In this document: positions 25,633-52,303 of the stretch, piece by piece
How the letters are laid out: the number at the start of each line of letters is the position of its first letter
How positions within the stretch are numbered: position 1 is the first letter of the stretch
Source of the DNA: a virus
Taxonomy: Duplodnaviria > Caudoviricetes
Length of the DNA stretch: 64,000 bases
IMG/VR virus record: IMGVR_UViG_3300033121_000719
Location: 68,784-132,783 of that record
Direction: 5' to 3' (one strand)
The notes under the pieces: model-generated
What the model was told of the DNA's origin: nothing
The model's database searches: none
Seen by the model: the letters and a program-made list of their open reading frames with translations, nothing else
Program-made: the position numbers and the translations under genes

Positions 25633-26345
25633 TCTTTTCTTTTCTCCATTAGAAAGTTTTTCATCTTTGAACAATCCATGCTTACATTTGTTGGCATTGT
25701 GTCATCAATTTTTCCATCAGTTGGTTTTACATTAGGATTTGTTTTTATGGCAAGCTCGTAGACACTTTTTAATTCTGTTCCAACATTATATACACCAACA
25801 GCATTGTTCTTAATTAACTCTACTATTAGTCTTGCTATTACGTCAATTGAATCAAAATTTCCTACTTGGCTTGTTATACCAAAAGCATAGGGAAATGGAT
25901 TTGGTTTGAAGGAAGTTCTAATCAGTAAATAGTTTTTCATTCTTGCTTGCACGTAAGCATCACCCAATAATTTCGTATAACTATAAAAGTTGCGGGCATG
26001 TACTGGAACGTCTTCTTCAGTGGCATTATCTACTGACCCACCATAAATATAGTCCGTACTTATGTGAACAAGTTTTTTGCCAAGCATAAAACAACTGTCT
26101 ACCAAGTCCATAACTCCAAGATAGTTCACATCCCAATGGAGTTCTTTTTCTTTTGAATATGTTGATGTGTTTGCAATACAATTCAAGATAGTATTATATC
26201 TTCCAACATAGTTTATATATGTTTCAGGATTTCTAATATCAATCCCGTTATTCTTTCTGCTTACCATCCCCCAATTGGTGAGCGTTTTTATTTCTGTAGC
26301 AAGTCTTCCGTCACCTAAAATTAAAACATCATCGTACATTCTCAT
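25629..26345 (-). CDS. rmlD: dTDP-4-dehydrorhamnose reductase-like (RmlD)
   Basis: ILGDGRL, HISTDYIY, YSYTKLLGD, LLIRTS. Confidence 0.75.
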   Translation of the reverse strand: MRMYDDVLILGDGRLATEIKTLTNWGMVSRKNNGIDIRNPETYINYVGRYNTILNCIANTSTYSKEKELHWDVNYLGVMDLVDSCFMLGKKLVHISTDYIYGGSVDNATEEDVPVHARNFYSYTKLLGDAYVQARMKNYLLIRTSFKPNPFPYAFGITSQVGNFDSIDVIARLIVELIKNNAVGVYNVGTELKSVYELAIKTNPNVKPTDGKIDDTMPTNVSMDCSKMKNFLMEKRKE

Positions 26346-27642
26346 ATCCTTTTAAAACATCTTCAACATAATTGAAAATATCATCATCATATAGAGGCGA
26401 AGCACCAATAAAGAACACGTGGTCTAAGACTTTATTTGCCTCTGGATATTCTCTAAAATCTCCTAAATGAGCAAACCCCTTGTGCATAAGAATATTGCCT
26501 GCAAAATAATGTCTTGTCTGAATAAGGTTTGTTTCAAGATAACTTAATAGTTTATGTTTTTGTTCAGAGTTGTTACATACAATAGGTGTTCCAAACCAAG
26601 ATGTTTCAGCACCGCCAATTTCGCTTGGAATATGGACATTGGTTACATATTTTAAAATTAAATTAGACAAAACCTTCTTGCTCTTTTTACGATTTTCATG
26701 TATGCTGTCTATTTTATTTAGTTGTTCCAAACCAATAGCACCCTGCAAATCCAATGGTTGCAAATTATATCCCATTCCAGTAAATACGTATTTATGGTCA
26801 ACCACACCATCATAGTTTTCAATCCATTTATCAAAACGATGTTTGCAAATCCCATCTGGAAGTAAGTTTTCAGTACCAGAACATACACAACCTCTTGCCC
26901 AAGTGCTATAATTTCTTGCATAGTTAATAATGTTTCTGTTATCTGAGATAACCATTCCACCATGAATGGTGGAAATATGATGAGCCGCATAGAAACTGTT
27001 GCTTGAAGCTACTGCATATTCATTTAGGTATTTACCCCTCCACTTGCTTCCAAGACTATCACAGTTATCAAGGATCAATTTAAGACCATGTTTTTCACAT
27101 AAAAACAGGATTTTATCAAAGTCAGGAGGATTCCCTAACACTGGTGAAACAAAAATTGCCTTAGTTTTTGACGTTATTTTTTCCTCAATTTTATCTAAAT
27201 TGAAATTCAGTGTATCCATTTCAATATCTACGAACACTGGAACTAAGCCATTTTGAGGAACAACTGATATTGTAGTTGGAAAACCAACAACTGAAACAAT
27301 AATTTCAGAGCCGTCTTGCCATTCAAAAAATTTCTTCAATGCCGCTATCATAACAAGGTTTGCACTTGACCCTGAATTTACCATAACTCCAAAAAGATTA
27401 TTCACTTTCTTGGCAAACTCAAATTCAAACTTCTGTACGTTTTCACCTGATGCCAGCCATTTTCCAATCAATAGCGTTCTAATTGCGGCAACAACTTCAT
27501 CTTCATCCCAAATTGGCCCACTATAATAAATTGGTGTTTTATGTGGGACAAATTTTCTTCTGCTGTTATACACATATGGCATAACATTGTATTCGCTACT
27601 TATTTTTTCTATCAAGTTTTTTATTTCTAAGTCTATATCCAA
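26329..27642 (-). CDS. rfbH: DegT/DnrJ-family NDP-4-keto-6-deoxyhexose 3-dehydratase (RfbH/E1-like)
   Basis: VNSGSSANL, DNCDSLG, SFYAAHH (His at the usual Lys position), GCVC...C cluster, DHKY, GYNL. Confidence 0.8.
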   Translation of the reverse strand: MDIDLEIKNLIEKISSEYNVMPYVYNSRRKFVPHKTPIYYSGPIWDEDEVVAAIRTLLIGKWLASGENVQKFEFEFAKKVNNLFGVMVNSGSSANLVMIAALKKFFEWQDGSEIIVSVVGFPTTISVVPQNGLVPVFVDIEMDTLNFNLDKIEEKITSKTKAIFVSPVLGNPPDFDKILFLCEKHGLKLILDNCDSLGSKWRGKYLNEYAVASSNSFYAAHHISTIHGGMVISDNRNIINYARNYSTWARGCVCSGTENLLPDGICKHRFDKWIENYDGVVDHKYVFTGMGYNLQPLDLQGAIGLEQLNKIDSIHENRKKSKKVLSNLILKYVTNVHIPSEIGGAETSWFGTPIVCNNSEQKHKLLSYLETNLIQTRHYFAGNILMHKGFAHLGDFREYPEANKVLDHVFFIGASPLYDDDIFNYVEDVLKGYENVR

Positions 27643-29741: not shown

Positions 29742-30824
29742 TTAATCCTTTTCATTCAGCAAGAATTTATTGCTTATGATCTTGAAACTAATTCCAAGAT
29801 CATAATTTCTACAAACAACGCCTTCTCTTTCTGTTGGAAATATCTTTGATTGTCCTTCTGCAATTTTCAAAATGTCATTGATTTCAGATGGAATTTGTAA
29901 ATTATCTGCAAGAATAGGCACAGTATCTAACCCAAAACTTTCAACCGTTTGACGCATTAGTTTATTATCAGCCTGACCATAAGGATATTTCAAATTGAAA
30001 ACAAACAGTTTATATCCGTCAATATGATATTTATTTCCTTGAATACCATCTCCTGCAATTTCTCCTTGCAAGACAATGAAGTTATTGTTTCCAATTAGCT
30101 GGTTTAGAATCTTCTCAATGTTATATTGTTTTGCAACCTTCCACCAAGAACTGTTATCAGGTTTTGAGAGTCTTAAATTTCTTGAACAAACACCAAATTC
30201 ATACTTGTTCCAGAACATCCACTTTGGGTTCCTTATCAAAAAATATGATACGCTTTGTCCATCAATTTTTTCAGTTACCTGATACTCATAGTCCTTCCCC
30301 CATAACTTTGGGAGATTTTGGATTCTTTCCTCATCAGTTTTACTGAAAAAAGATGGGAATCTTCCAGATTTCTTTTTAAAAAAGAGATTTCTAGTAATTG
30401 ACCAGCGTTTTAGAATTTTGATATACCATTTATCTTTGTCGCATAGCTCTAACGTTCTATCAATTTCAGCTTGTTCAGATGGAGTCAAATATTTTTTTAC
30501 ACCAATTATATCAGTAACATCTTGACCTTCTTCATATTCAGCTTGAGGTAAATATGATATAGGCAACAAGAGTCCTTGAGATAATTGTTTTCGTAGCTTG
30601 ATTGTTTTGATTCTATAATGACGCTCTTTCAAAAAATCAAACTCAGGCTTGATTGGCATTATGCTGTCAATTTCACAATAAACAGCAAGATCACCAATTT
30701 TCATTTCTCCTTTTTTGACAACAACTTGCCATCCTAAAACAAAGGCAAGCTCAATACTATCAGCACCATCAATGGGTTGAATATCTTTAACTCTCTCAAT
30801 GTGAGCCAACACTCTATCACTCAT
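29742..30824 (-). CDS. RNA ligase (Rnl2-related, DRB0094-like, N-terminal OB domain)
   Basis: IQPIDGADSIE, KTDEERIQN, motif I TEKIDG, QGEI, TEREGVV, FKIIS. Confidence 0.85.
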   Translation of the reverse strand: MSDRVLAHIERVKDIQPIDGADSIELAFVLGWQVVVKKGEMKIGDLAVYCEIDSIMPIKPEFDFLKERHYRIKTIKLRKQLSQGLLLPISYLPQAEYEEGQDVTDIIGVKKYLTPSEQAEIDRTLELCDKDKWYIKILKRWSITRNLFFKKKSGRFPSFFSKTDEERIQNLPKLWGKDYEYQVTEKIDGQSVSYFLIRNPKWMFWNKYEFGVCSRNLRLSKPDNSSWWKVAKQYNIEKILNQLIGNNNFIVLQGEIAGDGIQGNKYHIDGYKLFVFNLKYPYGQADNKLMRQTVESFGLDTVPILADNLQIPSEINDILKIAEGQSKIFPTEREGVVCRNYDLGISFKIISNKFLLNEKD

Positions 30825-33065: not shown

Positions 33066-33977
33066 TTACAAACCCATTAGTTTATAGTATAAATTCGTTA
33101 TACCAACTCTATCACAAGAATGGGGTAAGTTGCTTTTAGCATACCAAACATCAAAATCCTTATCCATTTGTTCTGCTTTCTCTATGACTTCATCATATGA
33201 ATAGATTCCGTTTTTGATAGCTAAAATTTCTTCTGCATTTGGTAGTGGGAAAGTTATTTTTCCAGTTAATAATAATTCTTTACCTTCTCCCATGAGTCTA
33301 AACAAATGACTAGCATGTTTTACATCATACTTGAATTTTTCTTCAAGCTCTTTTCTAGCTGGATTTCTTTCACAATACCAAGCTATATAATTATCCCATC
33401 TTTTTTTAGCTTCCCTATATTCTCGTTCTCTTTGAATTTCATCAACATATTCATCCTTAAAAAATTCAAGAGAAACATTGAATAAGTTATTAAGTGCATC
33501 ACCACTTATTTTTGGGGAGTCTGTTAGACCAAAATCCTCTCTAGTTGGTTTTCTTTTGGGTGGATTGATAAAATACGTTCTATGAGTTCTAATTGCATTT
33601 AGTTGACTCATAGCATATCCACTAAAAGTATATTTTATCTTTTTGCTCAAAAATAGACTTCTATTCTCAACAATTATTTTCCAATCATTAGTATTAAGAA
33701 GAACCATATTTTCTGGAACAAAAAGCATTTCAATAATGTTTGGGTTTGCATCTCCACACAACTTAAAAAACTTCCCAAGATCATATATAACCCTATCTTC
33801 CTCAACAAAACCGTTATCTTTTTGCTCAAATCTGTTATAAGGGTCTATAACTACATTGAGAGGTGTTTTAGAGACGCCTCTATAGTCCCAATCACTTTTA
33901 GGTGTATTAGTACCGTAGAGTCTACTACCAGTAATTAACTTTACTATCTGATGTTCTTCTGGATTATAAGTTTTCAA
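33066..33977 (-). CDS. Pol-beta-superfamily nucleotidyltransferase (YcgL/RNA-repair-associated type)
   Basis: GSRLYGTNTPKSDWDYRG, NPNIIE, YDVKHASHLFRL. Confidence 0.8.
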   Translation of the reverse strand: MKTYNPEEHQIVKLITGSRLYGTNTPKSDWDYRGVSKTPLNVVIDPYNRFEQKDNGFVEEDRVIYDLGKFFKLCGDANPNIIEMLFVPENMVLLNTNDWKIIVENRSLFLSKKIKYTFSGYAMSQLNAIRTHRTYFINPPKRKPTREDFGLTDSPKISGDALNNLFNVSLEFFKDEYVDEIQREREYREAKKRWDNYIAWYCERNPARKELEEKFKYDVKHASHLFRLMGEGKELLLTGKITFPLPNAEEILAIKNGIYSYDEVIEKAEQMDKDFDVWYAKSNLPHSCDRVGITNLYYKLMGL

Positions 33978-40136: not shown

Positions 40137-41612
40137 TTATAGAACAATTTTGCTGTATCGTTCTCCTTCCAGAACCTTGAGCATGGCATCAACTGGATTG
40201 TAACCAATTCCTTCAAGAACACTTTTGAACACACTTACTGAATGTCCACTTGCCAATTGAACACCTCTTGATTCTTTATCAACTTGAAATGAATTTTTTG
40301 AGTCTCTTACATTCCAAAAAATTACATTTGGCATAGTATAACCATGAGCAGAAAATTTGGCTGTCATAGTTTCAAACAGCGTCTTATTCCAGCCACCAGT
40401 ACAACCATCAAACTGCATATCAGAAATGATAATGATTGCTTTTGGCAGGTCGTCATTCGTCAAATTATTACTGATAGCGGTCTGTAAAATAAGATCAAAA
40501 GCCGCTTTTAAGTTTGTGTTTTGCACAATTTCAGGAATACAATTCAGTTTTGACTGTAAAGTATCACCCTTAATTTCAACGAAATGTGGGGTGCTACTAA
40601 AGGTCAAGAACTTGTTATGCCACACTCCTTGATTACGTTCTGCAAAATATACAGCCAACCCAAGAGATGTCATAATTGGTAAGCCACCATGTCCATACAT
40701 TGACCCGCTTGAGTCTGCCATAATAAGGACGCTGTTTTCTCCTTCAATGTAATTTGGTAAAGCCTTCCATTGAGCTTCAGAAACTCTATCAGACTTCCAA
40801 TTTGTATTATAACCACCAGAATAAATTGTTCTCAAGATGTCGTAGGGATAAAGAGTGGTACTGTTGATTTTTACTTCACCCTTTTCAACTTTATTCAAGT
40901 AAGCTACAAACCCGTCAGGATCATGTCGTGAAAATGCTTTACGATATTTTGTCATAGCATTTGAACTAACACCACTATAAACAATACTTCTCCATTCATT
41001 TGAACTCATTTTCCGTTCAAGAACATCAAGCCCTGTACGTAACATGGCTAAAGTTCTGCGATATTCTTTTGGAGTCTGTTTGAAAAAGATTTGAAACTTG
41101 TAAGCAATTTCACGACTTTCACGTGAGGATGTATTATTTGACTTCATCCATTTTCCTAAGAGCGAAAACTTTTCGCCATTCTGCAAATTTTTGATGTCAT
41201 CAACTAACTGATAGCCAACTAACTGCATCATTTCTTTTTCAACTTTCGTTCCAATAAGAACGAACAAATCGTCCCAACGACCATATTCAGGAATAAGTGT
41301 CATGTTTTTGATAACAGCTTCAGGGTTGTTGTTTCCTAAATATTTCAAGATAGTTCTGAAAACTTTTCGTTCACCCAAACCGCCACGAATATCACGCGCA
41401 TAAAATAAACATTTCAGCGCAAGCAAAGGATTTTCAGACCAAGCCATAGAAAAAGCTCTCACAATATCATTTTCAGAACGATCTCTGATTGCACCAGCCT
41501 GACCATAAAAGTCAAGAACATAATTTCCAGTAGTGGACAAAGCATTTGCACCATTTTCTGTCTGAATCATTGTTCCACCACGCTGTAAACCGCTTACAAA
41601 ATTTGCTGACAT
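40137..41612 (-). CDS. DUF2828-family TROVE-like/VWA protein (Ro60-related architecture)
   Basis: TENGA, RDIRGGLGER, YGRWDDL, KW, LYPYD, QWKAL, VWA MIDAS DSSGSM, NTN, ISDMQFD, FWNV. Confidence 0.85.
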   Translation of the reverse strand: MSANFVSGLQRGGTMIQTENGANALSTTGNYVLDFYGQAGAIRDRSENDIVRAFSMAWSENPLLALKCLFYARDIRGGLGERKVFRTILKYLGNNNPEAVIKNMTLIPEYGRWDDLFVLIGTKVEKEMMQLVGYQLVDDIKNLQNGEKFSLLGKWMKSNNTSSRESREIAYKFQIFFKQTPKEYRRTLAMLRTGLDVLERKMSSNEWRSIVYSGVSSNAMTKYRKAFSRHDPDGFVAYLNKVEKGEVKINSTTLYPYDILRTIYSGGYNTNWKSDRVSEAQWKALPNYIEGENSVLIMADSSGSMYGHGGLPIMTSLGLAVYFAERNQGVWHNKFLTFSSTPHFVEIKGDTLQSKLNCIPEIVQNTNLKAAFDLILQTAISNNLTNDDLPKAIIIISDMQFDGCTGGWNKTLFETMTAKFSAHGYTMPNVIFWNVRDSKNSFQVDKESRGVQLASGHSVSVFKSVLEGIGYNPVDAMLKVLEGERYSKIVL

Positions 41613-41650: not shown

Positions 41651-41679
41651 ATTATACGACAATTTCAAATATAAGTCAA
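41651..41679 (-). promoter_or_regulatory. sigma70-type promoter for the DUF2828 gene
   Basis: TTGACT-17-TATAAT. Confidence 0.7.
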
Positions 41680-41709: not shown

Positions 41710-41770
41710 AAGACTCTTTTATTTATTTTTTTAGCATAAAAAATTTGGTTTGTATCGCTGTAAGAGTCTT
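41710..41770 (-). ncRNA. ACAGCAA-handle hairpin RNA A (apical loop AU-GCU-AA)
   Basis: AAGACTCTT/AAGAGTCTT stem, ACAGCGA, apical TTTTT-ATGCTAA-AAAAA. Confidence 0.65.
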
Positions 41771-41798
41771 ACTTTAATGGAGAATGAAAATAATAAAA

Positions 41799-41859
41799 TC
41801 AGACACATAAACTTTAGAATTTAGCAGATTCTTGTTTTTGTATTGCTGTAAGTGTCTGA
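41799..41859 (-). ncRNA. ACAGCAA-handle hairpin RNA B (Ser GCU anticodon-loop mimic)
   Basis: TCAGACAC/GTGTCTGA stem, ACAGCAA, apical AGAAT-CTGCTAA-ATTCT. Confidence 0.7.
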
Positions 41860-41886
41860 AACAATGCAAGGTCTCCTGTGACCAAG

Positions 41887-41959
41887 TACCCCTTGTAGGC
41901 TACGATCCCACGTATCCAAGCTGAGGGCTTAGTGTCCTAGTCCACTAGACGAAAGGGGT
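41887..41959 (-). tRNA. tRNA-Glu(CUC), atypical loops
   Basis: Acceptor ACCCCTT/AAGGGGT; CTAAG-CCCTCAG-CTTGG; T-loop ATCGTAG. Confidence 0.7.
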
Positions 41960-41975
41960 ATTTTTATAATAAAAC

Positions 41976-42034
41976 AAGATGCCGTCAACTGTTTATCTTA
42001 AAAGGATAAGGTTTTGGATTGCTGTTAGCATCTT
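41976..42034 (-). ncRNA. ACAGCAA-handle hairpin RNA C (Lys UUU anticodon-loop mimic)
   Basis: AAGATGCT/GGCATCTT stem, ACAGCAA, apical TTATC-CTTTTAA-GATAA. Confidence 0.7.
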
Positions 42035-42037
42035 TAG

Positions 42038-42110
42038 TGAGAGAGGTTGGACTCGAACCAACGACCACGATCATGTCAAGATAAGAGTTTTGTATTGCTG
42101 TATGTGTCTT
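42038..42110 (-). ncRNA. ACAGCAA handle fused to a tRNA 3' half (GAC loop, T arm, acceptor 3' strand)
   Basis: AAGACACAT-ACAGCAA...ATC-TTGACAT-GAT...GTTGG-TTCGAGT-CCAAC-CTCTCTC-A; no 5' half. Confidence 0.6.
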
Positions 42111-42113
42111 TAG

Positions 42114-42186
42114 TGGAGGTCAAGGGACTCGAACCCCTAACTAGCCGCTCATAAGACGGATACTCTAACCATTGAGTTACACCTCC
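42114..42186 (-). tRNA. tRNA with UAU anticodon (Ile)
   Basis: GGAGGTG...GACCTCC-A; D arm ACTC-AATGGTTA-GAGT; loop CTTATGA; T arm AGGGG-TTCGAGT-CCCTT. Confidence 0.75.
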
Positions 42187-42202
42187 ATTTTTATACTTTT
42201 AG

Positions 42203-42276
42203 CGCAAGTGACAGGTCACGATCCTGCGACATTCTGCTTAGAAGGCAGACGCTCTATCCAACTGAGCTACACTTGC
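42203..42276 (-). tRNA. tRNA-Arg(UCU)
   Basis: GCAAGTG/CACTTGC; TCTGC-CTTCTAA-GCAGA; T-loop ATCGTGA. Confidence 0.85.
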
Positions 42277-42362
42277 ATTTTGCTTGCATAGATATTAATT
42301 GTTATAGGTCATATAAATTTTAAGATATATGCAAGCTCTTAGGAGAAAAATTATGAATACCT

Positions 42363-42415
42363 AGATACATTTATTTTCTTTTTAAGAGAAGATTTTTTGA
42401 TTGCTGTATGTATCT
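42363..42415 (-). ncRNA. ACAGCAA-handle hairpin RNA D (Leu UAA anticodon-loop mimic)
   Basis: AGATACAT/ATGTATCT stem, ACAGCAA, apical TTCT-CTTAAAA-AGAA. Confidence 0.7.
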
Positions 42416-42419
42416 TTAG

Positions 42420-42549
42420 TAGTCTGAGTGGGACTCGAACCCACACCTTCTTTATGTGAAAAAGAGTTTAAGATTTTTGTATTGCAGTATATATCTAAAA
42501 CTAGATATATTGGTTTCTTGTTTTTATGCTGCCATTACACCATCAGACT
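42420..42549 (-). ncRNA. tRNA-like chimera (CAC loop) with the handle inserted between D arm and anticodon arm
   Basis: Acceptor AGTCTGA/TCAGACT; T arm GTGGG-TTCGAGT-CCCAC; TCTTT-TTCACAT-AAAGA; insert ATATATCTA-GTTT-TAGATATAT-ACTGCAA. Confidence 0.7.
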
Positions 42550-42562
42550 ATTTTATTACAAG

Positions 42563-42687
42563 TAGAGAGTATTGGATTTGAACCAATGACCCAGCGATTT
42601 TTTATAATATTTTTGAATTGCTGTTTGCGTCTGTTAAGACACACTTTTTATTATTGTCGCTTGCTCTGCCAACTGAGCTAACTCTCT
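42563..42687 (-). ncRNA. tRNA-like chimera with the handle replacing the anticodon loop
   Basis: AGAGAGT/ACTCTCT; GCTC-AGTTGGCA-GAGC; stem AGCGA/TCGCT enclosing TGTGTCT-TAAC-AGACGCA-A-ACAGCAA; T arm ATTGG-TTCAAAT-CCAAT. Confidence 0.75.
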
Positions 42688-42698
42688 ATAAAGCAATC

Positions 42699-42758
42699 AA
42701 GATACATTAGATTTTCAAGTCAATAGGTTGAAAAGGTTTGAATTGCTGTATGTATCTT
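42699..42758 (-). ncRNA. ACAGCAA-handle hairpin RNA E
   Basis: AAGATACAT/ATGTATCTT stem, ACAGCAA, apical TTTTCAA-CCTATTGAC-TTGAAAA. Confidence 0.7.
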
Positions 42759-42761
42759 TAG

Positions 42762-42834
42762 TACCCCTTGATAGATTCGGACTACCGTAAGCACCTTGAG
42801 AGGGTGCTGTCCTAGACCACTAGACGAAAGGGGT
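42762..42834 (-). tRNA. tRNA-Glu(CUC)
   Basis: ACCCCTT/AAGGGGT; GCACC-CTCTCAA-GGTGC; T-loop TCCGAAT. Confidence 0.8.
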
Positions 42835-42849
42835 GTTTGTTATTTTTAC

Positions 42850-42912
42850 TAGACACATTTGCTTTTTCGTCAGCCAATTAGATGAAAAATTTTGTATTGC
42901 TGTGTGTGTCTA
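42850..42912 (-). ncRNA. ACAGCAA-handle hairpin RNA F
   Basis: TAGACACA/TGTGTCTA stem, ACAGCAA, apical TTTTTCATC-TAATTGGCT-GACGAAAAA. Confidence 0.65.
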
Positions 42913-42934
42913 AAAGTTTCTCAATTACTATTTA

Positions 42935-42962
42935 ATTATACCACTAAAATTTTATTTGTCAA
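42935..42962 (-). promoter_or_regulatory. Promoter driving the tRNA/ncRNA array
   Basis: TTGACA-16-TATAAT; the -10 is ~20 nt upstream of RNA F. Confidence 0.75.
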
Positions 42963-43704
42963 GTATTTTTCAAAATTCTAAAAAATTGGTGGATTTGGAT
43001 AACAATAAATGAACATACCCACGATAACCAAAATCCAAAACAGAACAAACAGAAAGACTAAAATATTTTTTATCATAAAACTCCGTTTCTCAGTTACTAT
43101 TTAATTATACCAGATTTGAAAATGAAAGTCAAGTATTTTTCAAAAAAAAGAATTTTTCAATGTCTTACATCATCTTCTTTTATTTTTTTGAATGTTGAAC
43201 CTAAACTACCACGACCACTTTCATAAAATTTATCTTCAAACCAATTCACAAAACTGTGAACGCACTTTCCGTCTTGATAGGTTTGGCTTACGTGTTCCCA
43301 TATTTTATACTTTCCAAAACCATATAAAGTATAAATATCAATATAATAATGGTCACAGTATATATGATAAGTTTTTCTTCTTGTTATAAATTCTTTTTTC
43401 ATCATAAATCCTCCAATAACTATATCTATTGAATAGTTAATTTTCATTAACTATTCTAACATCTAGTTATTGTAAAATTAATCTTCTCTGTCCCAATCAG
43501 AATTTTCTGAATTATCTTCTTCAAAGTCATCATCGTCATCAGGACGTGGTGTCAAAGAACTGTTATTCATAATAAACTCCTTTGTTTGATTTCTCAATCA
43601 CTACTTAAGTATACCACATCTGGAAATAAAAGTCAAGCATTTTTCATTTTTAGACTTTATCTATTCCTCAAGCAATAAACTTGAGGAATATAAAAACCAA
43701 AAAA

Positions 43705-44808
43705 CTAACTGGACTTAAAATTATAAATTGGCATTATGCGTTCAACAATCTCAACATCATCAGCAACAGCATCTACAATGCTCTGAAACGGCTTGTAAGC
43801 GTCTGGTGCTTCATCCAATGTGTTTTGACCTACAGATGAAGTATAAATACCTTCCATCTGCGTTTTGAACGTATCTAATGGTATGTTTTGCTTGGCTTTT
43901 GACCTTGACATTAATCTTCCAGCCCCATGAGGTGCAGATGAAAGATTGCTTTTATTGCCCTTTCCAATGCAAAGTAAAGAACCATCTCGCATGTTCATGG
44001 GAATAATGAGGGTTTTTCCAAGTTCAGCAGATACAGCGCCCTTACGCAAAATCATGGTTTCAATATCAATGTAATTATGTACAGTTTCAAAAACCCCTGA
44101 AAATTCATATTTGAAATATTCCATAATCAACTTCGCAATCATCAGACGGTTGCGTTGTGCGTATTGCTGACAAATGTGCATATCATTGATGTAGTTTTCA
44201 AAGTTTGCACCTGACACATAACATAAATCTCTATGGATGCCTTTTCCATCACATTCTTCAACTGCTTTACGTTGATGGTAATTTGCAACTTGTAGTCCAA
44301 GATTTCTTGAACCAGTATGAATGACAAGATAAAACTCATTATTAGAAGATTTATTCACCTCAATAAAATGATTACCACCACCCAAAGAACCAATGGATTT
44401 TTTGAATACATCCATTCCTTTTGATAATGAGTCTTTGCAAGTCAATCCAGACAAATCCATATTATCCAAAACTTTGTTATGGTCTGAGAACCCATGAGGA
44501 ATGTGGTGTCTAATAAAAGTATCCAGTTCAGGCAATCTTTCTTGAATTTCATCTGGAATCTTTGTGACAAACATAGAGCATCCAACATCAACTCCCACTA
44601 AATTAGGGCAAACTTTTTCATCTTTGATTGTCATAACAGTTCCAATGGTGCAACCAGCACCAGCATGACAATCAGCTTGAATTTCAATCTGACTATCCTT
44701 TACAAATTCCTGATTGAGTAAATTCATAACCTGAGATATTGTTTCATTATCAACAATATCAGTATGAATATTTGCGATGTTATACTTTCCTTGTAGTGTT
44801 ATCATCAC
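43705..44808 (-). CDS. rtcB: RtcB-family RNA 2',3'-cyclic phosphate/3'-phosphate ligase
   Basis: DCHAG, GVDVGC, GSLGGGNHF, HTGSR, HNYI, RKGA, PHGAGR, DEAPDAYK. Confidence 0.95.
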   Translation of the reverse strand: MMITLQGKYNIANIHTDIVDNETISQVMNLLNQEFVKDSQIEIQADCHAGAGCTIGTVMTIKDEKVCPNLVGVDVGCSMFVTKIPDEIQERLPELDTFIRHHIPHGFSDHNKVLDNMDLSGLTCKDSLSKGMDVFKKSIGSLGGGNHFIEVNKSSNNEFYLVIHTGSRNLGLQVANYHQRKAVEECDGKGIHRDLCYVSGANFENYINDMHICQQYAQRNRLMIAKLIMEYFKYEFSGVFETVHNYIDIETMILRKGAVSAELGKTLIIPMNMRDGSLLCIGKGNKSNLSSAPHGAGRLMSRSKAKQNIPLDTFKTQMEGIYTSSVGQNTLDEAPDAYKPFQSIVDAVADDVEIVERIMPIYNFKSS

Positions 44809-45251
44809 TTCCTCTTTGTCTTTGATAATTTACAAACCATATTTTTTGCGCCATTATGGATTCTATCTTTACTGGCATCAAGAAAAACCCACCACTTGTT
44901 TTCATAGACAATAATATTATGCAGGTCTATATTGGGATTAATAAGAATCATTCTCTTGTAGAATTTTTCAAAGCTGGTATTTCCTCTGTCCTGATTACAT
45001 TTATTGCAAGACAAAACGATAGGTGATGGTTTGTGTTTCCTTTTATATGTTTGACGTTCATCAAACTTTAAAGGAAAAATATGGTCAACCGTTGCGCCGT
45101 CTGGTTGATTGATTTGTATGCGATTTTCAGGATACATTTTAGTATCTTTACCACACCAAAAACACATACCGTTGACTTTTGCAGAAATAACAATTTTACT
45201 TGCTCTGCCTGTGCCCATGCTAAATCCTCTCTTTTTAAAATTAGAGAACAC
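44805..45251 (-). CDS. HNH endonuclease
   Basis: CFWCG, ATVDHIFP, SCNKCNQDRG. Confidence 0.75.
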   Translation of the reverse strand: MFSNFKKRGFSMGTGRASKIVISAKVNGMCFWCGKDTKMYPENRIQINQPDGATVDHIFPLKFDERQTYKRKHKPSPIVLSCNKCNQDRGNTSFEKFYKRMILINPNIDLHNIIVYENKWWVFLDASKDRIHNGAKNMVCKLSKTKRK

Positions 45252-51436: not shown

Positions 51437-52232
51437 GATATTTGTCTCCTGTTATATAGCATGAAAAAGATAATTTTATTGGGTTAAATATTCCAATATG
51501 GATCAATCCATATTTTTAAAGACCAGTTTTTTCTATTATTTTGCCATTTGGAAGTAGGATAAAATAAAGAAAATACAACCATAGCAATTTGCCATTCATA
51601 AGCTACACTTCCCTTAAATGGTTTACGAATTAAATTTTTAAACATTTTATCCTCCAAACACATGAAAGGTTCATTTCATTATACTAACAATTTGAAATAC
51701 AATAATTTTGCTTTTTTGCTAATGTCTTTGACTTTCACCCATTCAGTAAAGCAGTAATCATAACTGCCTTGAATAGTATATTTTTCACAATCAATTTGAT
51801 ATTTTAAAATGTATTCGTCCATGTTATACCTTTTCTGTTATAGTTAATGAAAAGCTCATTTCATAGGGTAAACTTCTTTTATTTTTTCATGGTCTGTTTT
51901 GACAAAAAATATCATTGAGTTATACCGTCCGTTTTGTGCAGTATGTTCAACCTCTACATTATCATCAAACCTAATCAGAATTTCACCAGCACCATGTTTT
52001 TCATAGTTGAGAGTATTCTCATTACTAATAAACAAGATTCCGTATTCTTCAATATCACCATGAATACTCATGCAATCATTAATAGATAAGTATTTTGGCT
52101 TAAAATCAACGTTCAATACTAGAGTGGTGTCATTGTTTAATAGTTCTGTTATTGAAATAACCCATCCCATATCGTCATTCACCGTTAAGCGATAATTCAT
52201 AACAACCTACATTATTGTCTATAAAAACATAG

Positions 52233-52303
52233 TTCAACATATTGGATTTGAACCAATGACTTCAGGTATATGAGCCTGTCCTCTGCCTCTGAGGTAATGT
52301 TGA
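52233..52303 (-). tRNA. Degenerate tRNA-Met(CAU)-like gene
   Basis: TCAACAT/ATGTTGA; CCTC-AGAGGCA-GAGG; CAGG-CTCATATA-CCTG (8-nt loop); ATTGG-TTCAAAT-CCAAT. Confidence 0.6.

What the first reader, a model, noticed from the sequence alone, without database searches (positions are those of the whole stretch)
41710..42912. Array of ~60-nt 'handle + anticodon-loop' RNAs: candidate new ncRNA class (anticodon decoys or guides)
Seen: six standalone minus-strand hairpins (41710-41770, 41799-41859, 41976-42034, 42363-42415, 42699-42758, 42850-42912) share one layout. It is a terminal stem AGAYWY.../...RTCT, an unpaired ACAGCAA (once ACAGCGA), an A-rich linker, then a variable apical stem-loop. The terminal stems covary (AGACTCTT/AAGAGTCT, AGACAC/GTGTCT, AGATGC/GCATCT, AGATAC/GTATCT), which points to RNA structure. 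Four apical loops are 7 nt and look like tRNA anticodon loops: CU-GCU-AA and AU-GCU-AA (Ser), CU-UUU-AA (Lys), CU-UAA-AA (Leu). The other two have 9-nt loops. Known: host anticodon nucleases (PrrC, RloC, PARIS AriB, VapC) cut anticodon loops, and tRNA-Lys(UUU) is a classic target. Inference: these are modular RNAs with a constant protein-binding handle and a swappable anticodon stem-loop, acting as decoys, sensors or repair substrates. I do not recognise the motif as a named family.
Basis: partly seen in the sequence, partly recalled or inferred. Interest (0 to 1): 0.92.

Follow-up and report, generated by a model that had tools for sequence, protein, structure and literature searches.

The report
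Phage handle-tagged anticodon-arm RNAs
The six hairpins are real members of a widespread small-RNA family, absent from Rfam, that shares a protein-docking "handle" and often displays tRNA anticodon arms; it travels with a Ro60-shaped phage protein, so it is most likely a second kind of Ro/Y-RNA particle, probably used against host attacks on RNA.

Summary
All six minus-strand hairpins exist at the stated coordinates. A covariance model built only from other phages finds exactly these six (32-39 bits; next best elsewhere 14.7). The array holds nine handles, not six: two sit inside tRNA bodies and one is fused to a tRNA 3' part.

The handle is a 6-8 bp helix, 0-3 nt, then ACAGCAA. It flanks DUF2828/vWA genes in 75 of 80 uncultured phage loci and in FelixO1, Listeria, Mycobacterium, Staphylococcus, Campylobacter, Enterococcus and Bacillus phages. 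This window's DUF2828 protein is predicted to fold like Ro60.

The anticodon-loop claim holds across the family: 26 of 138 short modules carry a YU-NNN-RN loop, against 0.6 in shuffles.

Best reading: these are Y-RNA-like partner RNAs of the Ro60-like protein, showing tRNA parts. Binding and the decoy idea are untested. RtcB is not a conserved partner (1 of 10 genomes).

No Rfam family matches. Short forms weakly resemble Dictyostelium Class I RNAs; long forms elsewhere resemble YrlA.

This scan found the same family earlier on at least 31 other genomes. Two papers only guess at "Y RNAs" beside this gene.

The parts
42935..42962 (-). Promoter of the array: TTGACA, 16 nt, TG-extended TATAAT (12 of 12 matches)
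   Evidence: No intrinsic terminator is predicted on the minus strand inside the array.
42850..42912 (-). Module A: handle AGACAC(AC)/GTGTCT + ACAGCAA. The cargo is a hairpin with a large loop, not anticodon-like.
   Evidence: R1 36.3 bits; fold; no anticodon-arm pattern.
42761..42834 (-). tRNA-Glu(CUC)
   Evidence: ARAGORN; Rfam tRNA 54.8 bits.
42699..42758 (-). Module B: handle AGATACAT/ATGTATCT + ACAGCAA. The cargo is a 7-bp hairpin with a 9-nt loop.
   Evidence: R1 38.9 bits.
42563..42687 (-). tRNA-body chimera, class B. Acceptor, D, anticodon-stem (AGCGA/TCGCT) and T arms are perfect. The anticodon loop is replaced by a loop-closed handle (GTGTCT-TAAC-AGACGC, AA, ACAGCAA). No canonical anticodon remains.
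   Evidence: Rfam tRNA 50.7 bits with a 58-nt insert. ARAGORN can only read 'Phe(AAA)' with A33.
42420..42549 (-). tRNA chimera, class A. It is a complete tRNA-Val(CAC) cloverleaf with a 60-nt handle arm (ATATATCT-AGTTT-TAGATATAT, ACTGCAA) between the D arm and the anticodon arm (after nt 26).
   Evidence: removing the insert in silico gives an ARAGORN tRNA-Val(CAC). ARAGORN's intron mode offers another reading, Leu(UAA).
42363..42415 (-). Module C: handle AGATACAT/ATGTATCT + ACAGCAA. The cargo is a 4-bp stem with loop CUUAAAA (Leu UAA-like).
   Evidence: R1 32.0 bits.
42202..42276 (-). tRNA-Arg(UCU)
42113..42186 (-). tRNA-Ile(UAU)
42038..42109 (-). Truncated member: handle 5' strand AGACACAT + ACAGCAA + 12 nt, then nt 29-73 of a tRNA-Val(GAC) (loop UUGACAU, T arm, acceptor 3' strand). 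It has no partner strand or 5' half in cis.
   Evidence: Sequence; R1 22.7 bits on the handle; no 5' half found in the genome.
41976..42034 (-). Module D: handle AGATGC/GCATCT + ACAGCAA. The cargo is UUAUC-CUUUUAA-GAUAA (Lys UUU anticodon arm).
   Evidence: R1 35.7 bits.
41886..41959 (-). Degenerate tRNA-Glu-like gene with an aberrant anticodon and T loop
   Evidence: ARAGORN; Rfam tRNA only 36.5 bits.
41799..41859 (-). Module E: handle AGACAC/GTGTCT + ACAGCAA. The cargo is AGAAU-CUGCUAA-AUUCU (Ser GCU anticodon arm).
   Evidence: R1 34.8 bits.
41710..41770 (-). Module F: handle AGACTCTT/AAGAGTCT + ACAGCGA. The cargo is UUUUU-AUGCUAA-AAAAA.
   Evidence: R1 36.1 bits; Rfam RF01414 21.7 bits, full length.
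40137..41612 (-). Gene for the DUF2828 + DUF7788 (vWA, MIDAS D300/S302/S304) protein with a predicted Ro60-like ring fold. It is the presumed partner of the handle. Its own promoter lies at 41651-41679.
   Evidence: Pfam; PHROG 850; AlphaFold2 pLDDT 89.4; Foldseek Ro60 hit 1yvr, E 3.5e-8, TM 0.61; promoter.
43705..44808 (-). RtcB RNA ligase gene upstream of the array. It is a neighbour here, not a conserved partner of the family.
   Evidence: Pfam 223 bits; linkage tests.

Best explanation
The six hairpins, with three further handle-bearing elements in the same array, are the cognate small RNAs of the phage's Ro60-like DUF2828/vWA protein. In effect they form a second, uncatalogued kind of Y RNA.

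Each RNA has two modules. The constant handle is a 6-8 bp helix joining the two ends, then 0-3 nt, then single-stranded ACAGCAA. It is the likely docking site for the ring protein (inferred). The variable cargo starts about 9-12 nt downstream. It is an anticodon-arm look-alike in four of the six, another hairpin in two, and a whole tRNA body in the chimeras.

The array is transcribed with ordinary tRNAs from a consensus promoter. Its members are presumably cut out by the tRNA-processing enzymes (inferred from their placement 3 nt after tRNA 3' ends).

By analogy with Ro60 and Y RNA, the RNA would gate the ring. Alternatively it would tether the ring to factors that recognise tRNA anticodon arms or bodies. 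This would serve the phage's control of RNA damage or its counter-defence.

Shown here: family membership, linkage to the gene, the predicted Ro60-like fold, and the anticodon-arm cargo. Inferred: binding, processing and function.
For: 1. Family membership: a model built only from other phages finds these six at 32-39 bits and nothing else in the window above 23 bits.

2. Linkage to the gene:
- In 80 IMG/VR loci, ACAGCAA occurs 354 times on the gene strand and 30 times on the other.
- 64% of occurrences have a flanking helix of 7 bp or more, against 15-17% in controls.
- 75 of 80 loci have at least one handle, peaking in the 1 kb upstream of the gene.
- In five complete genomes of phages of Salmonella, Listeria, Mycobacterium, Staphylococcus and Campylobacter, 11 of 12 model hits lie within about 1 kb of the DUF2828 gene. 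Handles also lie beside the gene in Enterococcus phage Porthos and Bacillus phage Tsamsa.

3. The helix covaries: 7 of 7 pairs change on both sides, and 0 of 500 shuffles reach the score.

4. Protein fold: pLDDT 89.4. The top eleven Foldseek hits are Ro60, TROVE or Rsr structures, including Thermus phage phiLo Ro60.

5. Long relatives (Enterococcus, Mycobacterium, FelixO1, Tsamsa) carry a permuted tRNA-like domain. In Enterococcus and Mycobacterium it matches YrlA at 34-48 bits.

6. Cargo: 26 of 138 short modules have YU-NNN-RN loops, against 0.62 in shuffles (maximum 3), and 23 of the 26 have exactly 5-bp stems. The spacing from the motif is fixed at 9-12 nt, here and elsewhere.

7. Literature:
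- Bas63 gp130, described as Ro60-like and sitting next to the tRNA genes, counters the Ppl defence (PMC11482910).
- In Listeria phage CKA15 the Rsr-like protein is found in virions. Three very highly transcribed non-coding regions lie within 2 kb upstream of its gene (PMC12282133).
Against: - No binding, expression or processing data exist for this phage. The only RNA-library signal is one 166-nt contig, which proves nothing.
- The handle lacks the Ro60-binding motif of known Y RNAs (GNCGAAN0-1G or CGAA; PMC4201824, PMC12135203).
- The protein is only about 13% identical to Ro60 and has no TROVE Pfam hit.
- Bas63 gp130 alone, expressed from a plasmid or from T7, countered Ppl. So at least that activity does not need the phage RNAs. 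That gp130 belongs to this protein family is inferred from the paper's description and was not tested here.
- The modules used for the covariation count were picked by their pairing, so the percentage paired is partly circular.
Confidence: 0.7

Rival explanations
1. Anticodon-nuclease decoys or sensors. The abundant handle-plus-anticodon-arm RNAs, alone or held by the ring protein, soak up or report host nucleases that cut tRNA anticodon loops. This spares real tRNAs. It is a specific version of what the cargo does, and it is compatible with the partner-RNA reading.
For: - Anticodon-arm cargo is about 40-fold enriched over shuffles and has tRNA-exact geometry: a 5-bp stem, a 7-nt loop, U33 and R37.
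- Recurrent anticodons include UUU (Lys), GUU (Asn), UGA and GCU (Ser) and UUG (Gln). From my own knowledge, tRNA-Lys(UUU) is the PrrC and PARIS target, and Asn is among the colicin E5 targets.
- The window also encodes RtcB, an ATP-dependent RNA ligase and RlaP, which form a repair arsenal.
- The array sits behind a 12-of-12 consensus promoter.
- A protein described as a relative counters a defence system.
Against: - Two of the six modules here, and about 70% of short modules elsewhere, have no anticodon-like loop.
- Class B chimeras delete the anticodon loop altogether.
- The one defence known to be countered, Ppl, is an ATPase-PHP protein proposed to attack DNA, and gp130 worked without the RNAs.
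- No nuclease was tested.
Confidence: 0.25
2. The handle marks an excisable insert, that is, a new tRNA intron or split-tRNA signal. An endonuclease would cut at the handle and RtcB would rejoin the exons. The standalone hairpins would be by-products or trans-acting pieces.
For: - Removing the insert in silico turns 18 of 19 class A chimeras into canonical ARAGORN tRNAs (1 of 19 before). These include this window's Val(CAC).
- Inserts sit after nt 28 (12 cases), 29 (6) or 26 (1).
- RtcB lies 0.8 kb upstream of the array.
- One element looks like a tRNA 3' half with a handle strand (42038-42109).
Against: - RtcB is absent from 9 of 10 handle-bearing phage genomes tested, and from all 80 loci within 3 kb.
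- The same handle closes standalone RNAs and permuted tRNA-like RNAs, where excision has no meaning.
- 23 class B chimeras have no anticodon to restore.
- Two 'Ser(GCU)' chimeras have a short variable arm. From my own knowledge, bacterial tRNA-Ser has a long variable arm, so these would not be working tRNA-Ser.
- No 5' half was found for the truncated element.
- No spliced joint appeared in the contigs (weak).
Confidence: 0.07
3. The hairpins are cis-acting elements of the operon: processing or stabilising hairpins between tRNAs, or an autoregulatory leader through which the DUF2828 protein controls its own mRNA. They would not be free small RNAs.
For: - Modules begin 3 nt after tRNA 3' ends.
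- In several loci the last module abuts the ribosome-binding site of the DUF2828 gene, as at L001 1853-1919.
- No terminator separates the array from the gene.
Against: - In FelixO1, Mycobacterium and Staphylococcus phages the modules lie downstream of the gene.
- Here a separate 11-of-12 promoter lies between the array and the gene.
- Several different cargos per genome are not needed for a leader.
Confidence: 0.08

Closest known systems
Ro60 (Rsr) with Y RNAs: bacterial and mycobacteriophage YrlA/YrlB (Rfam RF02553; Chen et al. 2014, PMC4201824), Thermus phage phiLo Ro60 with Yrl1/Yrl2 (PMC12135203), and the Salmonella rsr-yrlBA-rtcBA operon
   Same: - A ring-shaped HEAT + vWA protein is encoded beside several small RNAs on the same strand.
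- The RNA ends pair into a helix next to a conserved motif.
- The second module mimics tRNA.
- An RtcB gene is nearby in this window.
- Long relatives match the YrlA tRNA-like domain at 34-48 bits.
   Different: - The protein is DUF2828/DUF7788, not Pfam TROVE, and is about 13% identical to Ro60.
- The handle is a helix plus ACAGCAA, not the GNCGAAN0-1G or CGAA bulged helix.
- The cargo here is mostly a bare anticodon arm, which YrlA lacks.
- Some members are unpermuted tRNAs with the handle as an extra arm.
- No window element reaches the Rfam threshold (19.4 bits against 69).
Class I RNAs of dictyostelid social amoebae (Rfam RF01414; Kjellin et al. 2021, PMC7919456)
   Same: - The length is about 55-60 nt.
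- A 6-bp terminal helix covaries.
- A conserved motif follows the 5' strand directly: the Rfam consensus is CUUACAGCAAU, and this phage has (U)UACAGCAAU. An A-rich stretch and a variable part follow.
- RF01414 gave nine full-length or near-full-length weak hits (16-24 bits), all exactly on handle modules, in five independent loci.
   Different: - Every hit is below the 41.5-bit threshold.
- Class I RNAs are reported as unique to Dictyostelia, use a DUSE promoter, bind the RRM protein Rnp1A and act in development.
- I could not test whether dictyostelids encode a DUF2828 protein. The likeness may be convergent.
Phage tRNAs and RNA-repair enzymes that counter host anticodon nucleases (T4 Pnkp/Rnl1 against PrrC; phage tRNAs with altered anticodon loops, van den Berg et al. 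2023, PMC10264068, cited in PMC11482910)
   Same: - The elements sit in a phage tRNA array, with RNA ligases in the same genome.
- The anticodon arms of Lys(UUU) and others are on display.
   Different: These are not full tRNAs. No link to any nuclease has been shown.

Membership tests
Handle RNAs of DUF2828 phages (uncatalogued; defined here by model R1) | Terminal 6-8 bp helix, 0-3 nt, then ACWGCDA, scored by a covariance model built without this window | tested here: met
   The six modules score 32.0-38.9 bits, E 6e-8 to 5e-6, full length.
Handle RNAs of DUF2828 phages (uncatalogued; defined here by model R1) | Encoded within a few kb of a DUF2828/DUF7788 gene, on the same strand | tested here: met
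   The array ends 98 nt upstream of the gene start, on the same strand. The rule holds in 75 of 80 loci and in 5 of 5 complete genomes.
Y RNA / YrlA (Rfam RF02553) | Reaches the Rfam gathering score (69 bits) | tested here: not met
   The only window hit scores 19.4 bits and lies on ordinary tRNAs. Relatives in other phages reach 34-48 bits, through the tRNA-like domain only.
Y RNA / YrlA (Rfam RF02553) | Ro60-binding motif GNCGAAN0-1G (or CGAA) in the terminal helix (PMC4201824, PMC12135203) | tested here: not met
   The handle carries ACAGCAA instead. In the cmscan alignment, the YrlA model starts after the ACAGCGA motif.
Y RNA / YrlA (Rfam RF02553) | Encoded beside, and bound by, a Ro60 (TROVE) protein | tested here: inconclusive
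   The neighbour has a predicted Ro60-like fold but no TROVE Pfam hit. Binding cannot be tested with these tools.
Y RNA / YrlA (Rfam RF02553) | tRNA-like domain (T arm, D arm, acceptor-like stem) | tested here: not met
   It is absent from the six hairpins. It is present only in the chimeras at 42563-42687 and 42420-42549, and partly at 42038-42109.
Dictyostelium Class I RNA (Rfam RF01414) | Reaches the Rfam gathering score (41.5 bits) | tested here: not met
   Scores are 21.7, 19.2 and 16.1 bits in the window, and 22-24 bits in other loci.
Dictyostelium Class I RNA (Rfam RF01414) | 42-65 nt, a 6-bp terminal helix that covaries, and an 11-nt motif next to its 5' strand | tested here: met
   The modules are 53-63 nt with 6-8 bp helices. 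The motif matches 8-10 of the 11 consensus positions.
Dictyostelium Class I RNA (Rfam RF01414) | Dictyostelid origin, DUSE promoter, Rnp1A binding | not testable with these tools
   No eukaryotic genome or proteome is held. The pull-down paper (Avesson 2011) is not in the library.
tRNA intron or split tRNA (archaeal BHB type) | Excision restores a functional tRNA, and a dedicated endonuclease and ligase are present | tested here: inconclusive
   Excision in silico restores 18 of 19 class A cloverleaves. However, RtcB is missing from 9 of 10 genomes, and class B and the standalone forms have nothing to restore.

The most novel reading that the evidence does not exclude
The helix-plus-ACAGCAA handle is the RNA signature of an ancient DUF2828-type Ro-like particle shared by phages, bacteria and eukaryotes. 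On this reading, the orphan Class I RNAs of Dictyostelium are its eukaryotic members. The phage versions use swappable anticodon arms to aim the particle at enzymes that attack or repair tRNA.
Probability: 0.1. Interest if true: 0.9.

Novelty: new variant of a known kind. Interest (0 to 1): 0.72.

Why it matters
Ro60 and its Y RNAs are a classic but poorly understood RNA-surveillance particle. This finding points to a second, far more common phage version: a tblastn search with this window's protein finds relatives in 704 phage records.

The RNA partner can be read straight from sequence, and its cargo is explicitly built from tRNA parts. That gives a testable route to several questions:
- What does this protein do? 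One paper reports that a protein it describes as Ro60-like defeats a bacterial defence.
- Why do phage tRNA arrays contain 'odd' tRNAs?
- Do phages display anticodon arms to deal with host tRNA nucleases?

It also offers a possible, still unlikely, explanation for the orphan Class I RNAs of Dictyostelium. For annotation, the tRNA chimeras should not be called intron-bearing tRNAs or pseudogenes.

Tried and rejected
- Rfam gathering and permissive scans: no family fits.
- A 5' half for the truncated element 42038-42109: GAGAGAG-type acceptor strands in the window and the genome lie in coding sequence or lack a D arm. I treat the element as a relic.
- The search for related loci with the single protein found nothing. 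The alignment query worked.
- Public runs: one run holds the whole stretch and is probably the source sample. A wastewater metatranscriptome holds a 166-nt contig identical over 41996-42101. All data are contigs, so they show no ends, no expression level and no informative joints. This neither supports nor refutes discrete transcripts or splicing.
- PDB search by sequence found only vWA-type matches, not Ro60. The likeness shows only at the fold level.
- The Avesson 2011 pull-down paper is not held. Supplements of Chen 2014 are not held. A guessed Bas63 accession turned out to be another phage, so I did not test that Bas63 gp130 belongs to this protein family.
- The ESM Atlas returned only phage and bacterial DUF2828 clusters, with nothing on eukaryotes.
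- Paper searches for DUF2828 and for ACAGCAA with Ro60 found no description of the RNA family.
- A DNA repeat or MITE reading is rejected. The elements are strand-specific (354 against 30), lie inside one transcription unit, and vary by compensatory changes.
Full report
**What is there**

On the minus strand, between rtcB (43705-44808) and a DUF2828/DUF7788 gene (40137-41612; Pfam), lies a 1.25-kb non-coding array. A perfect sigma-70-type promoter stands in front of it (TTGACA, 16 nt, TG-TATAAT; 42962-42935). A second promoter (41679-41651) stands in front of the gene. No terminator is predicted in between.

The array holds four to five ordinary tRNA genes: Glu CUC, Arg UCU, Ile UAU and a degenerate Glu-like copy. 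It also holds the six hairpins of the finding, at exactly the stated coordinates. The shared pattern AGAYDYWW-ACWGCRAT occurs nine times here with at most one mismatch, and nowhere else in the complete 132.8-kb phage genome.

- 42563-42687: a tRNA body whose anticodon loop is replaced by a loop-closed handle.
- 42420-42549: a full tRNA-Val(CAC) with the handle as an extra arm after nt 26.
- 42038-42109: a handle strand fused to nt 29-73 of a tRNA-Val(GAC), with no 5' half anywhere in the genome.

**Is it more than chance?**

I collected 80 IMG/VR loci around relatives of the protein.
- ACAGCAA occurs 354 times on the gene strand and 30 times on the other strand of these loci.
- 64% of occurrences have a flanking helix of at least 7 bp. 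Controls give 15% when the upstream 12 nt are shuffled and 17% on the opposite strand.
- 75 of 80 loci carry at least one handle, concentrated in the 1 kb before the gene.

From 41 short modules of these other phages I built covariance model R1.
- In this window it finds the six hairpins at 32.0-38.9 bits (E 6e-8 to 5e-6) and the two weaker elements at 22.7 and 19.1 bits. Nothing else scores above 14.7 bits.
- In five complete genomes (FelixO1, Listeria LP-064, Mycobacterium Whirlwind, Staphylococcus S-CoN_Ph9, Campylobacter F365), 11 of 12 hits lie within about 1 kb of the DUF2828 gene.
- Bacillus phage Tsamsa, Enterococcus phage Porthos and two gut-phage contigs show the same.

On the alignment, all seven helix pairs show changes on both sides, and 0 of 500 shuffles reach the covariation score. 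The caveat is that modules were chosen by pairing. Within the window alone, helix positions 4-6 change in a compensatory way among the copies.

**The anticodon-loop claim**

Among 138 distinct short modules from the other phages, 26 fold into an apical hairpin with a 7-nt loop of the form YU-NNN-RN. Of these, 23 have exactly a 5-bp stem. Composition-preserving shuffles give 0.62 on average, with a maximum of 3.

A direct pattern search finds such arms in 44 of 145 modules. In 26 of these 44 the arm starts 9-12 nt after ACAGCAA. In this window the spacing is 9, 9, 10 and 12 nt. Recurrent anticodons are UUU, UGA, GUU, CAU, GCU and UUG.

It is not universal, though. Two of the six modules here, and about 70% elsewhere, carry other hairpins.

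**The tRNA chimeras**

Across all loci I found 42 distinct handles embedded in tRNA bodies with perfect acceptor and T stems.
- Class A, 19 cases: the handle sits in the 5' strand of the anticodon stem (after nt 28 in 12 cases, nt 29 in 6) or before it (nt 26, this window). Removing it in silico makes ARAGORN of 19 as canonical tRNAs, against 1 of 19 before removal.
- Class B, 23 cases: the handle replaces the anticodon loop, as at 42563-42687 here.
- In other phages the same two modules are circularly permuted. The ends lie in the handle and the acceptor stem is closed, as in YrlA. Two such copies in the Enterococcus phage and one in the Mycobacterium phage match Rfam YrlA at 34-48 bits, through the tRNA-like domain only. 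The YrlA model starts after the ACAGCAA motif.

One handle, attached in three topologies to tRNA parts, argues for a permanent docking module and against an intron. Three further points agree:
- RtcB is absent from 9 of 10 handle-bearing genomes and from all 80 loci within 3 kb.
- Class B has no anticodon to restore.
- Two 'Ser(GCU)' chimeras have a short variable arm. From my own knowledge, bacterial tRNA-Ser has a long variable arm.

**The protein**

An AlphaFold2 model built from 18 sequences has pLDDT 89.4 and pTM 0.88. Foldseek's top eleven hits are Ro60, TROVE or Rsr structures. They include Xenopus Ro60 (1yvr, E 3.5e-8, TM 0.61 over the full length), Thermus phage phiLo Ro60 and Deinococcus Rsr. 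Isolated vWA domains follow.

The MIDAS residues D300, S302 and S304 are invariant. Sequence searches alone do not see Ro60. tblastn finds relatives in 704 phage records.

**Literature**

Chen et al. 2014 (PMC4201824) defined bacterial and phage YrlA next to TROVE proteins, with the motif GNCGAAN0-1G. The phiLo study uses a CGAA motif. Neither covers this handle.

The PhageMaP preprint (PMC11482910) shows that Bas63 gp130 counters the Ppl defence, even when expressed alone in T7 infections. It describes gp130 as Ro60-like and as lying just upstream of the tRNA genes. It guesses that some 'tRNA genes' are Y RNAs. I infer, but did not test, that gp130 belongs to this protein family.

The CKA15 study (PMC12282133) finds the Rsr-like protein of a P100-type Listeria phage in virions. 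It also finds three extremely highly transcribed non-coding regions within 2 kb upstream, again proposed to be Y RNAs.

I found no paper that defines the handle or the family.

**Likeness to Dictyostelium Class I RNAs**

Rfam RF01414 has the consensus GaUcuC-CUUACAGCAAU-uaAAac...GagAuC-UG. It gave nine weak hits (16-24 bits; threshold 41.5), full-length or nearly so, all exactly on handle modules, in five independent loci. Length, helix and motif agree.

Kjellin et al. 2021 report these RNAs as unique to Dictyostelia and of unknown mechanism. Pfam describes DUF2828 as eukaryotic and viral (my own knowledge). I could not test whether dictyostelids have such a protein. I keep shared ancestry as the bold reading, at about 10%.

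**Mechanism**

Most likely (0.7), these are Y-RNA-like partner RNAs. The helix plus single-stranded ACAGCAA would dock on the ring protein. The cargo would bring, or compete for, factors that recognise anticodon arms or tRNA bodies.

A decoy or sensor role against host anticodon nucleases fits the cargo and the repair arsenal. That arsenal is RtcB, an OB-fold ATP-dependent RNA ligase at 29742-30824, and RlaP at 33066-33977. The role is untested (0.25, nested in the main reading). The intron reading (0.07) and the cis-element reading (0.08) are less likely.

**Earlier notes of this scan**

The same family was reported before on at least 31 other genomes, with the same Y-RNA-like and Class I readings. 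One later check gave the bold reading 6 in 100. I reached the reading from this window's sequence before opening those notes. The Bas63 paper came to me as a lead from one of them.

Noticed in passing
window 52232-52303 (-): A tRNA gene (Rfam 52.2 bits) that ARAGORN reads with a four-base anticodon 'cata', that is, an 8-nt anticodon loop. It may be an odd Met/Ile-type tRNA or a frameshift-suppressor-like tRNA.
   Followed up: no
window 41886-41959 (-): A second tRNA-Glu-like gene is degenerate (Rfam 36.5 bits). Its anticodon loop has C at position 33, and its T loop is AUCGUAG instead of UUCGAAU. It may be a decaying paralogue or another mimic.
   Followed up: partly
window 42277-42362 (-): An unassigned 86-nt spacer between module C and tRNA-Arg. 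It holds a long hairpin (GCTTGCATA...TATGCAAGC) and ATATCT motifs like handle 3' strands. It may be a relic of another member.
   Followed up: no
window 42916-42975 and 43104-43160 (-): The consensus promoter cassette (TTGAAAAATACTTGAC...GGTATAATTAAATAGTAA) is repeated. The source contig shows further copies. A 32-codon hydrophobic ORF (about 42980-43075) sits between two copies.
   Followed up: no
window 44805-45251 (-): An HNH endonuclease ORF overlaps the start of rtcB by 4 nt. The RtcB ORF is short (367 aa, with the Pfam match in two stretches), so the ligase gene may have been invaded by a homing element.
   Followed up: no
window 29742-30824 and 33066-33977 (-): More RNA-repair genes lie nearby: an OB-fold (PHA02142) ATP-dependent RNA ligase and an RlaP nucleotidyltransferase. 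With RtcB, that makes two ligases of different chemistry in one phage.
   Followed up: partly
L014 1468-2019 (Listeria phage LP-064): A ROOL-like RNA (87.4 bits, under the 99.1 threshold) lies about 1 kb upstream of the DUF2828 gene, beside the handle RNAs. It probably corresponds to the most highly transcribed ~490-nt region (26,236-26,727) reported for phage CKA15.
   Followed up: no
L028, L031, L001, L002 (gut or environmental phage contigs): Loop-closed handles in several unrelated contigs share the same cap, NNNTCA-TGTTCG-TGANNN. This suggests a conserved tetraloop-like closure that this window's two chimeras lack.
   Followed up: no
genome C1 9451-9570 (outside the window): ARAGORN in intron mode calls a tRNA-Ile(AAU) with a 30-nt intron, next to tRNA-Met. 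It carries no ACAGCAA handle.
   Followed up: no
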